Below are positions 1 to 3,000 of a DNA stretch of 64,000 bases, piece after piece. The position numbers were made by a program. Where the stretch lies: assembly GCF_055900595.2 (NCBI RefSeq), contig NZ_CM148325.1; one strand, 5' to 3'. Every line of letters starts with the position of its first letter. The first letter of the stretch is position 1.

Positions 1-3000
1 GACTACACTTACCACTTCGAAAAAGGTAATGACCTGGTGCTCGGCTCCCATATGCTGGAAGTCTGTCCGTCGATCGCTGTAGAAGAGAAACCGATCCTCG
101 ACGTTCAACACCTCGGTATTGGCGGTAAAGACGATCCTGCCCGCCTGATCTTCAATACCCAAACTGGTCCGGCGATTGTCGCCAGCTTGATTGATCTCGG
201 CGATCGTTACCGTCTGCTGGTTAACTGCATCGACACGGTGAAAACTCCGCACTCCTTGCCGAAACTGCCAGTGGCGAATGCGCTGTGGAAAGCGCAACCG
301 GATCTGCCAACAGCTTCCGAAGCGTGGATACTTGCTGGTGGCGCGCACCATACCGTCTTCAGCCATGCGCTGAATCTCAACGATATGCGCCAGTTTGCCG
401 AGATGCACGACATTGAAATCACGGTGATTGATAACGACACCCGCCTGCCAGCGTTTAAAGACGCGCTGCGCTGGAACGAAGTGTATTACGGATTTCGTCG
501 CTAAGTAGCCGCATCAGGTATGTAACGCCTGATGCGACGCTGACGCGTCTTATCTGGCCTACACGTTCCGATTTTGTAGGCCGGATAAGCAAAGCGCATC
601 CGGCACGAAGGAGTCAACATGTTAGAAGATCTCAAACGTCAGGTTTTAGAAGCCAACCTGGCGCTGCCAAAACACAACCTGGTCACGCTGACCTGGGGCA
701 ATGTCAGCGCCGTTGATCGCGAGCGCGGCGTCTTTGTAATCAAACCTTCCGGCGTCGATTACAGCATCATGACCGCTGACGATATGGTCGTGGTCAGCAT
801 CGAAACCGGTGAAGTGGTAGAAGGTACGAAAAAGCCCTCCTCCGACACGCCAACTCACCGACTGCTCTATCAGGCATTCCCGTCCATTGGCGGCATTGTG
901 CATACACACTCGCGCCACGCCACCATCTGGGCGCAGGCGGGTCAGTCAATCCCGGCAACCGGCACCACCCACGCCGACTATTTCTACGGCTCCATTCCCT
1001 GTACCCGTAAAATGACCGACGCAGAAATCAACGGCGAATATGAGTGGGAAACCGGTAACGTCATCGTTGAAACTTTCGAAAAACAGGGTATCGACGCAGC
1101 GCAAATGCCTGGCGTGCTGGTCCATTCTCACGGCCCGTTTGCATGGGGTAAAAACGCCGAAGACGCAGTGCATAACGCCATCGTGCTGGAAGAAGTCGCT
1201 TATATGGGGATTTTCTGCCGCCAGTTAGCCCCGCAATTGCCAGATATGCAGCAAACATTGCTGGATAAACACTATCTGCGTAAGCATGGTGCGAAGGCAT
1301 ATTACGGGCAGTAATGACTGTATAAAACCACAGCCAATCAAACGAAACCAGGCTATAATCAAGCCTGGTTTTTTGATGGAATTTCAGCGTGGCGCAGGCA
1401 GGTTTTATCTTAACCCGACACTGGCGGGACACCCCGCAAGGGACAGAGGTCTCCTTCTGGCTGGCGACGGACAACGGGCCGTTGCAGGTTACGCTTGCAC
1501 CGCAAGAGTCCGTGGCGTTTATTCCCGCCAATCAGGTTCCCCGCGCCCAGCATATTTTGCAGGGTGAACAAGGCTTTCGCCTGACGCCGCTGGCGTTAAA
1601 GGATTTTCACCGCCAGCCGGTGTATGGCCTTTACTGTCGCGCCCATCGCCAGTTGATGAATTACGAAAAGCGCCTGCGTGAAGGTGGCGTTACCGTCTAC
1701 GAGGCCGATGTGCGCCCGCCAGAACGCTATCTGATGGAGCGGTTTATCACCTCTCCGGTGTGGGTCGAGGGTGATATGCGCAATGGCGCTATCGTTAATG
1801 CCCGTCTGAAACCGCATCCCGACTACCGCCCGCCGCTCAAGTGGGTTTCTATTGATATTGAAACCACCCGCCACGGTGAACTGTACTGCATCGGTCTGGA
1901 AGGCTGCGGGCAGCGCATCGTTTATATGCTGGGGCCGGAGAATGGCGATGCCTCCGCGCTTGATTTCGAACTGGAGTACGTCGCCAGTCGTCCGCAGCTG
2001 CTGGAAAAACTCAACGCCTGGTTTGCAACTCATGATCCCGATGTGATCATCGGCTGGAACGTGGTGCAGTTCGATCTGCGAATGCTGCAAAAACATGCCG
2101 AGCGCTACCGTATTCCACTGCGTCTGGGGCGCGATAACAGTGAGCTGGAGTGGCGCGAGCACGGCTTTAAAAACGGCGTCTTTTTTGCCCAGGCCAAAGG
2201 TCGGCTAATTATCGACGGTATTGAGGCGCTGAAATCTGCATTCTGGAATTTCTCTTCATTCTCGCTGGAAACCGTCGCTCAGGAGTTATTAGGCGAAGGA
2301 AAATCTATCGATAACCCGTGGGATCGGATGGACGAAATTGACCGCCGTTTCGCCGAAGATAAACCTGCGCTGGCAACTTATAACCTGAAAGATTGCGAAC
2401 TGGTGACGCAGATCTTCCACAAAACTGAAATCATGCCGTTTTTACTCGAACGAGCGACGGTTAACGGCCTGCCGGTAGATCGGCACGGGGGGTCGGTGGC
2501 AGCGTTTGGTCATCTCTATTTTCCGCGAATGCATCGCGCTGGTTATGTCGCGCCTAATCTCGGCGAAGTGCCGCCGCACGCCAGCCCTGGCGGCTATGTG
2601 ATGGATTCGCGGCCTGGGCTTTATGATTCGGTACTGGTGCTGGACTACAAAAGCCTGTACCCCTCGATCATCCGCACCTATCTGATTGATCCCGTCGGGC
2701 TGGTGGAAGGCATGGCGCAGCCTGATCCAGAGCACAGCACCGAAGGCTTTCTCGATGCCTGGTTCTCGCGGGAGAAACATTGCCTGCCGGAGATTGTGAC
2801 TAACATCTGGCACGGGCGCGATGAAGCCAAACGCCAGGGCAATAAACCGCTGTCGCAGGCGCTGAAGATCATTATGAATGCCTTTTATGGCGTGCTTGGC
2901 ACCACCGCCTGCCGCTTCTTCGATCCGCGCCTGGCGTCGTCGATCACCATGCGTGGTCATCAGATCATGCGGCAAACCAAAGCGTTGATTGAAGCGCAGG

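What the first reader, a model, noticed from the sequence alone, without database searches (positions are those of the whole stretch)
1318..1376. SOS operator and araD terminator packed into the 74-bp araD-polB gap
A consensus LexA box lies 3 bp after the araD stop and is followed by a strong hairpin with a T-run that ends about 12 bp before the polB start. The polB promoter must therefore overlap the araD 3' end, and araD readthrough must pass the hairpin to reach polB.
Basis: partly seen in the sequence, partly recalled or inferred. Interest (0 to 1): 0.25.

Follow-up and report, generated by a model that had tools for sequence, protein, structure and literature searches.

The report
polB SOS promoter inside araBAD terminator
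The 74-bp gap between araD and polB in this E. coli window holds the known LexA operator, the polB promoter and the araBAD terminator interleaved, with the promoter's -10 box in the terminator loop; this is textbook-level biology, not a new element.

Summary
araD ends at 1314 and polB starts with GTG at 1389, leaving a 74-bp gap. A CTGT-N8-ACAG LexA core lies at 1318-1333. An 11-bp hairpin (1344-1354 paired with 1362-1372) runs into a T-run at 1369-1374.

The inference that the polB promoter must lie inside araD is not supported. The hairpin loop carries a perfect TATAAT at 1354-1359 (TATACT in K-12). Published genome-wide start-site mapping places the E. coli polB start at MG1655 65803, which is window 1366, 7 nt after that hexamer. 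The Klebsiella pneumoniae start maps 8 nt after the homologous hexamer.

The promoter therefore sits in the gap. The LexA box covers -50 to -31, including the -35 region, and transcription begins in the descending hairpin arm. polB mRNA thus lacks the 5' arm and escapes the terminator, while araBAD transcripts contain the whole hairpin.

Across 80 Enterobacteriaceae sequences the box, the hexamer and their 20-nt spacing are essentially invariant. An intact hairpin tracks adjacency to araD: 48 of 55 loci versus 4 of 19.

"Consensus" overstates the box, which has 7 mismatches to the 20-bp consensus. The element is already known and of low interest.

The parts
619..1314 (+). araD coding sequence (L-ribulose-5-phosphate 4-epimerase), last gene of araBAD; stop TAA at 1312-1314
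   Evidence: ORF list; RefSeq annotation of matching E. coli genomes
1316..1335 (.). LexA operator (SOS box) of polB/dinA: 20-mer GACTGTATAAAACCACAGCC with core CTGT-N8-ACAG at 1318-1333. It spans -50 to -31 relative to the mapped start.
   Evidence: Same sequence listed as the polB LexA motif in Thomassen 2010. CTGTA...CAG columns invariant in 80 of 80 sequences.
1331..1336 (+). -35 region of the polB promoter (CAGCCA, 3 of 6 matches to TTGACA, 17-bp spacer). Its first three bases are the CAG of the LexA box.
   Evidence: Position inferred from the mapped start and the -10 hexamer. Begins with the LexA-box CAG in 78 of 80 aligned sequences. Too weak for the consensus promoter scan.
1344..1354 (+). 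5' arm of the terminator hairpin (GAAACCAGGCT). It also forms the -22 to -12 stretch of the polB promoter and contains a CCAGG (Dcm-type) site.
   Evidence: Fold. Nearly invariant even where the 3' arm has decayed.
1354..1359 (+). -10 hexamer TATAAT of the polB promoter (TATACT in K-12). Its first T closes the stem and the rest lies in the hairpin loop.
   Evidence: TATAAT in 64 and TATACT in 16 of 80 sequences, with T, A, T, A and the final T invariant. Fixed 20-nt distance from the LexA core in 78 of 80.
1362..1374 (+). 3' arm of the hairpin (AGCCTGGTTTT, 1362-1372) running into the T-run 1369-1374. Together with the 5' arm it forms the intrinsic terminator of araBAD.
   Evidence: Integrity tracks adjacency to araD. 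In EHEC, arabinose raises araD 98-fold but polB only 1.65-fold.
1366..1366 (+). polB transcription start (T), equal to MG1655 65803, lying in the descending arm of the hairpin
   Evidence: Kim et al. 2012 Table S1. Homologous K. pneumoniae start. Tiling-array transcript start at about 1363.
1366..1388 (+). 23-nt polB 5' UTR (UGGUUUUUUGAUGGAAUUUCAGC). A weak Shine-Dalgarno-like GGA lies at 1378-1380 (inferred). It lacks the 5' arm, so no terminator can form.
   Evidence: The fold of 1366-1430 shows no hairpin followed by a U-run.
1389..3740 (+). polB (DNA polymerase II), GTG start, 783 aa

Best explanation
The gap is a compact composite of three known elements that share bases.

1. LexA operator. 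A LexA dimer binds 1316-1335 (-50 to -31). This overlaps the -35 region, and probably the A/T-rich upstream contact zone, of the polB promoter, so RNA polymerase is excluded until LexA is cleaved during the SOS response.

2. Promoter. It has a weak -35 (CAGCCA) and a consensus -10 (TATAAT, 1354-1359) and starts transcription at T1366.

3. Terminator. The -10 hexamer sits in the loop of the araBAD intrinsic terminator (stem 1344-1354 with 1362-1372, then the U-run).

Because the polB start lies in the descending arm, polB mRNA carries only the 3' arm and cannot form the terminator. araBAD transcripts arriving from upstream carry the full hairpin and U-run and stop there. This insulates the SOS-controlled polymerase gene from arabinose-induced transcription.

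Shown here or in cited data: the sequence features, the start sites in two species, the conservation and fixed spacing, the association of the hairpin with araD adjacency, and a large araD induction with almost no polB change under arabinose.

Inferred: LexA occlusion of the -35 region as the repression mechanism, the actual 3' end of araBAD RNA at the U-run, and the Shine-Dalgarno assignment.
For: - Sequence and fold.
- Identity of the locus with E. coli araD-polB. The gap differs from K-12 at only 2 positions, one of which turns TATACT into TATAAT.
- Experimental start at MG1655 65803 (window 1366): 5' UTR of 23 nt, and the printed upstream sequence begins exactly at the LexA 20-mer.
- Independent K. 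pneumoniae start 8 nt after its TATAAT: 4 reads, 5' UTR of 24 nt.
- The UV-induced transcript begins about 100 nt after a point 54 nt upstream of the motif, which is about window 1363. Array resolution is down to 7 nt in intergenic regions.
- polB reporters and arrays are LexA- and UV-regulated.
- In 80 Enterobacteriaceae sequences the invariant columns include the LexA half-sites, the -10 hexamer and the GTG start. The box-to-hexamer spacing is 20 nt in 78 of 80.
- The hairpin is strictly intact in 48 of 55 loci with the araD stop within 300 bp of the box, against 4 of 19 where it is more than 600 bp away. Fisher p = 2e-7, not corrected for phylogeny.
- Salmonella and several Citrobacter have a divergently oriented DUF4751 gene next to polB, and the 3' arm has decayed there.
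- Buttiauxella-type loci keep the hairpin through compensated arms, AAAGTGGTC and GACCACTTT.
- EHEC with and without arabinose: araD up 98.5-fold, polB up 1.65-fold.
Against: - Each start-site record rests on few reads (2 in E. coli, 4 in Klebsiella), as expected for a repressed promoter.
- No 3'-end mapping under arabinose was available, and the Term-seq data set has no araD end. Termination at this hairpin is therefore inferred.
- The column-wise covariation test on the hairpin is not significant: 2 pairs with double changes, and shuffles do as well. Compensation is confined to one lineage.
- Counter-examples exist. Phytobacter/Kosakonia (a DUF218 gene) and Pseudocitrobacter (an ORF with no Pfam match) have a co-oriented ORF ending just upstream of the box but no hairpin. 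L009, L012 and L081 keep the hairpin without an adjacent co-oriented gene.
- The consensus promoter scan finds no promoter here because the -35 is weak.
- The LexA box is weak by weight matrix.
Confidence: 0.85

Rival explanations
1. The polB promoter lies upstream, within the araD 3' end. LexA bound downstream of the start acts as a roadblock, and every polB transcript must read through the hairpin, which would then act as an attenuator.
For: A second start is listed for polB at MG1655 65946 (window 1223, inside araD, 166 nt upstream of the GTG), with 2 reads. The gap is short, and the consensus scan finds no promoter in it.
Against: - That start has no better read support than the gap start.
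- Its putative -10, TATTCT in K-12, reads TTTTCT in this window, losing the key A.
- No homologous start is listed for Klebsiella polB, whereas the gap start is.
- The tiling-array start of the UV-induced transcript lies downstream of the box.
- In Salmonella, Citrobacter and others araD is 600-1300 bp away, yet the box plus hexamer module stays directly upstream of polB with the same spacing.
- A transcript from 1223 would contain the full terminator.
Confidence: 0.05
2. The hairpin is primarily a polB regulatory structure rather than the araBAD terminator. For example, a DNA cruciform or promoter-architecture element could tune the -10 region, or it could be a binding site.
For: - The 5' arm AAACCAGG stays nearly invariant in lineages that lost the 3' arm.
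- The hairpin persists in L009, L012 and L081 without an adjacent co-oriented gene.
- The hairpin is symmetric, with an A-run before and a T-run after, and also scores as a terminator on the minus strand.
Against: - It has canonical intrinsic-terminator anatomy directly after a highly inducible operon.
- An intact stem plus T-run tracks araD adjacency.
- The 3' arm decays where the neighbour is divergent.
- polB mRNA does not contain the 5' arm.
- Arabinose induction of araD barely reaches polB.
Confidence: 0.07
3. The LexA-like motif and the hairpin are chance features of an AT-rich intergenic spacer with no function.
For: The core pattern alone is not rare (2 found against 0.54 expected). 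The weight-matrix score is below random maxima.
Against: Box, hexamer and spacing are invariant across 80 sequences from many genera while the flanks vary. The hairpin z-score is -5.4. polB is an accepted LexA target.
Confidence: 0.01

Closest known systems
E. coli polB (dinA) SOS box and promoter, as catalogued for K-12
   Same: The 20-mer GACTGTATAAAACCACAGCC is identical and has the same position 1 bp after the araD stop. The gap differs from MG1655 at only 2 of 74 positions. The sequence is listed as the polB LexA motif, and the start is mapped at 65803.
   Different: This window's allele has a consensus -10 (TATAAT) where K-12 has TATACT, plus one change in the 5' UTR (GGAATTT against GGATTTT). 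Only 14 of 5399 complete E. coli genomes are at least 99% identical over 1305-1400.
Intrinsic (Rho-independent) terminators of enterobacterial operons, here the araBAD terminator
   Same: A GC-containing stem (7 core pairs CCAGGCT/AGCCTGG, extended by A-U pairs), a 7-nt loop, a 6-T run, located 30 nt after the stop codon of the last gene of the operon.
   Different: Its loop doubles as the -10 hexamer, and its descending arm contains the start site of the next gene's promoter. The preceding A-run makes it symmetric. The 3' end was not mapped here.
SOS promoters in which the LexA box overlaps the -35 region rather than the -10 or start site
   Same: A single operator positioned to exclude RNA polymerase from upstream promoter contacts. 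The target is a moderately induced 'middle' SOS gene.
   Different: In recA the operator lies between the -35 and -10 elements, and in Salmonella SOS genes with LexA-dependent bistability the box overlaps the start site. The polB box is centred near -40.5 and is a weak match to consensus.

Membership tests
LexA operator (gammaproteobacterial SOS box) | CTG-N10-CAG inverted repeat, 16-bp core | tested here: met
   CTGTATAAAACCACAG at 1318-1333
LexA operator (gammaproteobacterial SOS box) | Good overall match to the 20-bp consensus TACTGTATATATATACAGTA or to a weight matrix of known boxes | tested here: inconclusive
   There are 7 mismatches of 20. The site scores 6.5 bits against 17-27 bits for the 15 training boxes, and is below the random 64-kb maxima. 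A published MEME p-value of 9.9e-8 places it near the weak end of accepted boxes.
LexA operator (gammaproteobacterial SOS box) | Overlaps the promoter of a DNA-damage-inducible gene | tested here: met
   The box spans -50 to -31 of the mapped start. polB is UV- and ciprofloxacin-inducible and LexA-dependent in the literature.
LexA operator (gammaproteobacterial SOS box) | Conserved in orthologous promoters | tested here: met
   CTGTA, the CAG and two central A positions are invariant in 80 of 80 sequences
LexA operator (gammaproteobacterial SOS box) | Direct LexA binding (footprint, gel shift or ChIP) | not testable with these tools
   The original footprint papers (Iwasaki 1990, Bonner 1990) are not held
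Intrinsic terminator | Stable GC-containing stem-loop immediately followed by a U-run | tested here: met
   -19.4 kcal/mol, z = -5.4. Six T at 1369-1374. The plus-strand hit was missed by the scanner because the stem absorbs part of the T-run.
Intrinsic terminator | Lies downstream of, and co-oriented with, a transcription unit that needs ending | tested here: met
   It lies 30 nt after the araD stop. Integrity tracks araD adjacency, 48 of 55 against 4 of 19.
Intrinsic terminator | Mapped RNA 3' end at the U-run | not tested
   The Term-seq set (LB and glucose, no arabinose) has no araD end. There is only indirect support: araD up 98.5-fold against polB up 1.65-fold with arabinose.
Intrinsic terminator | Base-pair covariation across relatives | tested here: inconclusive
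   The column-wise test is not better than shuffles. One lineage (L080, L081) has a fully compensated stem.
Sigma-70-type promoter | -10 hexamer close to TATAAT, 6-8 nt upstream of a mapped start | tested here: met
   TATAAT at 1354-1359 with the start at 1366. The Klebsiella homologue behaves the same way.
Sigma-70-type promoter | -35 hexamer close to TTGACA at 16-18 bp | tested here: not met
   CAGCCA matches 3 of 6, and the consensus scan reports no promoter. The promoter therefore relies on its -10 and possibly the A/T-rich -46 to -38 stretch (inference).

The most novel reading that the evidence does not exclude
The shared bases may do more than save space. Two possibilities remain open.

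1. Cross-talk. Occupancy of the polB promoter by LexA or RNA polymerase could modulate araBAD termination. Conversely, heavy arabinose-driven transcription across the operator could transiently evict LexA and prime polB. This would be a small coupling between sugar catabolism and a damage-tolerance polymerase, and polB does rise 1.65-fold with arabinose in EHEC.

2. A second role for the 5' arm. AAACCAGG(C/T) may also act as a promoter discriminator. G-15, G-14 and C-13 with TATACT resembles the sigma-S-preferred -10 context, and RpoS dependence of polB is reported. That would explain why this arm is conserved where the terminator has decayed.
Probability: 0.1. Interest if true: 0.4.

Novelty: already known. 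Interest (0 to 1): 0.1.

Why it matters
The finding matters mainly as a correction. A reader working from sequence alone could conclude that the polB promoter is buried in araD. In fact the gap holds a complete promoter whose -10 lies in the loop of the upstream terminator and whose start lies in the descending arm.

This layout lets one 30-bp hairpin stop araBAD transcripts without affecting polB transcripts. It is a tidy example of how bacteria insulate a stress-regulated gene from a strongly inducible neighbour within 74 bp. It is also a caution for automated annotation that treats terminators and promoters as mutually exclusive.

The comparative result is a modest addition to what is known. 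The operator plus -10 module and the terminator arm are separable in evolution, and the 3' arm decays once araD is no longer adjacent.

Tried and rejected
- **Original papers.** Mapping and footprint papers (Iwasaki 1990, Bonner 1990), plus Stringer 2014 on the AraC regulon and Dapa 2017 on RpoS and polB, are not held. Statements about them are from memory or second-hand.
- **Term-seq.** The supplements of Adams 2021 contain no araD 3' end, because those cultures had no arabinose.
- **Cappable-seq.** The supplement is truncated and showed no entry near 65803. This is uninformative.
- **Literature searches.** Searches for 'polBp', for araD/polB/terminator and for heterology index 12.09 gave nothing useful. 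One hit used 'PolB' for polymyxin B.
- **Consensus promoter scan.** It found 0 sites in 1100-1600, explained by the weak -35.
- **Covariation test.** The test on the 80-sequence alignment was not significant, so structural conservation is argued from the loss pattern and one compensated lineage instead.
- **Weight matrix for LexA.** The polB box scores low, so the claim of a 'consensus' box was downgraded.
- **Rfam.** It reports nothing in the gap, only a sub-threshold naRNA4 (REP-derived) hit at 486-559.
- **Heterology index.** The value 12.09 that I recall for this box could not be verified and is not used as evidence.

Full report
**Locus.** The window starts in araA (ORF ending at 504). 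REP-like repeats follow at about 505-600, then araD (619-1314, TAA stop at 1312-1314), a 74-bp gap (1315-1388) and a 783-codon GTG ORF (1389-3740). Megablast finds the segment in 5400 of 5426 complete E. coli genomes, annotated araD and polB. In MG1655 the same genes are b0061 and b0060 on the opposite strand, so K-12 coordinate = 67169 minus window position. The gap differs from K-12 at two positions only.

**Check of the observation.** CTGTATAAAACCACAG lies at 1318-1333, 3 bp after the araD stop.
- The hairpin pairs 1344-1354 with 1362-1372 around a 7-nt loop, followed by T's to 1374.
- As RNA it folds at -19.4 kcal/mol, z = -5.4, with 0 of 200 shuffles as stable.
- The T-run ends 14 nt before the GTG, not about 12.
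- The terminator scanner lists the hairpin on the minus strand only, because on the plus strand the A-U extension of the stem absorbs part of the T-run. With the 7-bp GC core as the stem, the plus-strand tail is TTTTTTGA.

'Consensus LexA box' is too strong.
- The 20-mer has 7 mismatches to TACTGTATATATATACAGTA.
- A weight matrix from 15 other E. coli boxes (sequences printed in Thomassen 2010) gives it 6.5 bits.
- The training sites score 17-27 bits, and the best hit in random 64-kb sequences averages 12.4 bits.
- The bare core occurs twice in the window against 0.54 expected.

The box is therefore real because of conservation and published regulation, not because of its score.

The hairpin loop contains TATAAT (1354-1359), which is TATACT in K-12. 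I predicted a start about 7 nt downstream, and the literature confirms it.
- Kim et al. 2012 (PMC3415461) Table S1 lists an experimental polB start at MG1655 65803 on the minus strand. The 5' UTR is 23 nt, and the upstream sequence is GACTGTATAAAACCACAGCCAATCAAACGAAACCAGGCTATACTCAAGCCT. This is window T1366. It puts the hexamer at -12 to -7 and the LexA 20-mer at -50 to -31.
- The same table lists the K. pneumoniae polB start with a 24-nt UTR after ...CCAGGCTATAATCAGGCCTG, 8 nt past the homologous hexamer.
- Thomassen 2010 placed the LexA motif at offset 54 of the 100 nt preceding the UV-induced polB transcript. That puts the transcript start near window 1363 on arrays with down to 7-nt intergenic resolution.

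All three place the start in the descending arm of the hairpin. The -35 position (1331-1336, CAGCCA) matches TTGACA at 3 of 6 and begins with the CAG of the operator. This explains both the failure of the consensus promoter scan and how LexA represses.

**Comparative evidence.** One scan of GTDB species representatives with the first 250 residues of PolB returned 80 Enterobacteriaceae loci. Of these, 79 contain the upstream region.
- In an 80-sequence alignment that includes the window, the invariant columns include CTGTA, two central A's and CAG of the box, G-15, T, A, T, A and the final T of the hexamer, and the GTG start.
- The hexamer is TATAAT in 64 sequences and TATACT in 16.
- The distance from box core to hexamer is 20 nt in 78 of 80 and 21 nt in 2.
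- The three bases before the hexamer are GGC (68), GGT (10) or GTC (2).

The sequence between box and hairpin, and the 5' UTR, vary freely. This is the signature of an operator-promoter module.

**The hairpin behaves differently.** araD is always upstream and co-oriented, but its stop lies from 0 to about 1300 bp from the box.
- With strict criteria (at least 8 contiguous pairs, at least 4 G-C pairs, T-run of at least 4), the hairpin is intact in 48 of 55 loci where the araD stop is within 300 bp. Most of the other 7 fail only on an interrupted T-run or one inner mismatch.
- It is intact in only 4 of 19 loci where araD is more than 600 bp away. Fisher p = 2e-7, uncorrected for shared ancestry.
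- In Salmonella and the Citrobacter freundii group a DUF4751 gene on the opposite strand lies between araD and polB. There the 3' arm is destroyed (Salmonella) or decaying (several Citrobacter).
- L080 and L081 keep the structure through changes on both arms, AAAGTGGTC and GACCACTTT.

The evidence has limits.
- The column-wise covariation test is not significant.
- Phytobacter/Kosakonia (a DUF218 gene) and Pseudocitrobacter (an ORF with no Pfam match) lack the hairpin although a co-oriented ORF ends just before the box.
- L009, L012 and L081 keep the hairpin without an adjacent co-oriented gene.

**Functional hint for termination.** In EHEC RNA-seq with and without L-arabinose (PMC11127945, supplementary file 3), araD rises 98.5-fold and polB 1.65-fold. 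Direct 3'-end data under arabinose were not available.

**Mechanism.** LexA on -50 to -31 blocks polymerase access to the -35 and upstream region. After LexA cleavage the promoter fires from T1366. The transcript begins UGGUUUUUUGAUGG..., lacks the 5' arm and shows no hairpin-plus-U-run in its fold. araBAD transcripts carry the entire hairpin and U-run and terminate. The operator, the promoter, the start sites and the conservation are shown. Occlusion as the repression mechanism and the exact araBAD 3' end are inferred.

The packing of operator and terminator is right. A second 2-read start inside araD (65946, window 1223) exists. However, its putative -10 is degraded in this window (TTTTCT against TATTCT), it has no listed Klebsiella counterpart, and its transcripts would meet the full terminator.

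**Novelty.** polB/dinA as a LexA target with this box is long established and appears in current reviews, and the start site is in a public table. From memory, and not verifiable here, the 1990 papers on polB already described the LexA site next to araD. Score: already known, low interest. Two minor additions come out of this work. The first is the evolutionary separability of the promoter module and the terminator arm. The second is the unexplained conservation of the 5' arm AAACCAGG where the 3' arm is gone.

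Noticed in passing
window 1345-1353; L007, L010, L033, L036, L043, L052, L053, L055: The 5' arm of the hairpin (AAACCAGG[C/T], a Dcm-type CCWGG site, -21 to -13 of the polB promoter) stays nearly invariant in lineages where the 3' arm has decayed, so pairing alone does not explain its conservation. G-15 is invariant in all 80 sequences.
   Followed up: partly
window 1354-1359: This window carries a consensus -10 (TATAAT) where K-12 has TATACT. Only 14 of 5399 complete E. coli genomes are at least 99% identical over 1305-1400. Across genera only these two hexamers occur (64 against 16), switching repeatedly. C-13 with TATACT resembles the sigma-S-preferred context, and RpoS dependence of polB is reported in a review.
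   Followed up: partly
window 1223 (MG1655 65946): A second weak experimental start assigned to polB lies inside araD (2 reads in Kim 2012). Its putative -10, TATTCT in K-12, reads TTTTCT in this window.
   Followed up: partly
window 486-600: REP/BIME-type palindromic repeats fill the araA-araD spacer. Rfam gives a sub-threshold naRNA4 (REP-derived) hit at 486-559 (30.7 bits against a gathering score of 59.5).
   Followed up: no
window 15316-15335: CGCTGGGAAGATAAACAGTA is the best LexA weight-matrix hit in the window (17.4 bits, in the range of weak true boxes). It lies inside a 282-codon ORF (14548-15396), and 9 of 200 random 64-kb sequences reached that score, so it is probably chance.
   Followed up: partly
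window 31907-31922: A second exact CTGT-N8-ACAG match (CTGTGACTTCCGACAG) lies inside overlapping ORFs and lacks an A/T-rich centre, so it is probably chance.
   Followed up: no
L007, L008-L013, L019, L021 (DUF4751, minus strand); L018, L023, L033, L053, L055 (DUF218, plus strand); L036, L043, L052, L022, L074 (170-aa ORF with no Pfam match): The araD-polB junction is a recurrent insertion point in other genera. Small genes of unknown function have been inserted between the araD stop and the LexA box, always leaving the box plus -10 module attached to polB. REP-like or other palindromic repeats are inserted at the same point in Enterobacter, Lelliottia and Klebsiella loci.
   Followed up: partly
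window 1100-1600: The window's araD-polB segment is unusually divergent for E. coli. Only 9 of 5400 genomes are at least 99% identical over 501 bp, and 1988 are only 90-95% identical.
   Followed up: no
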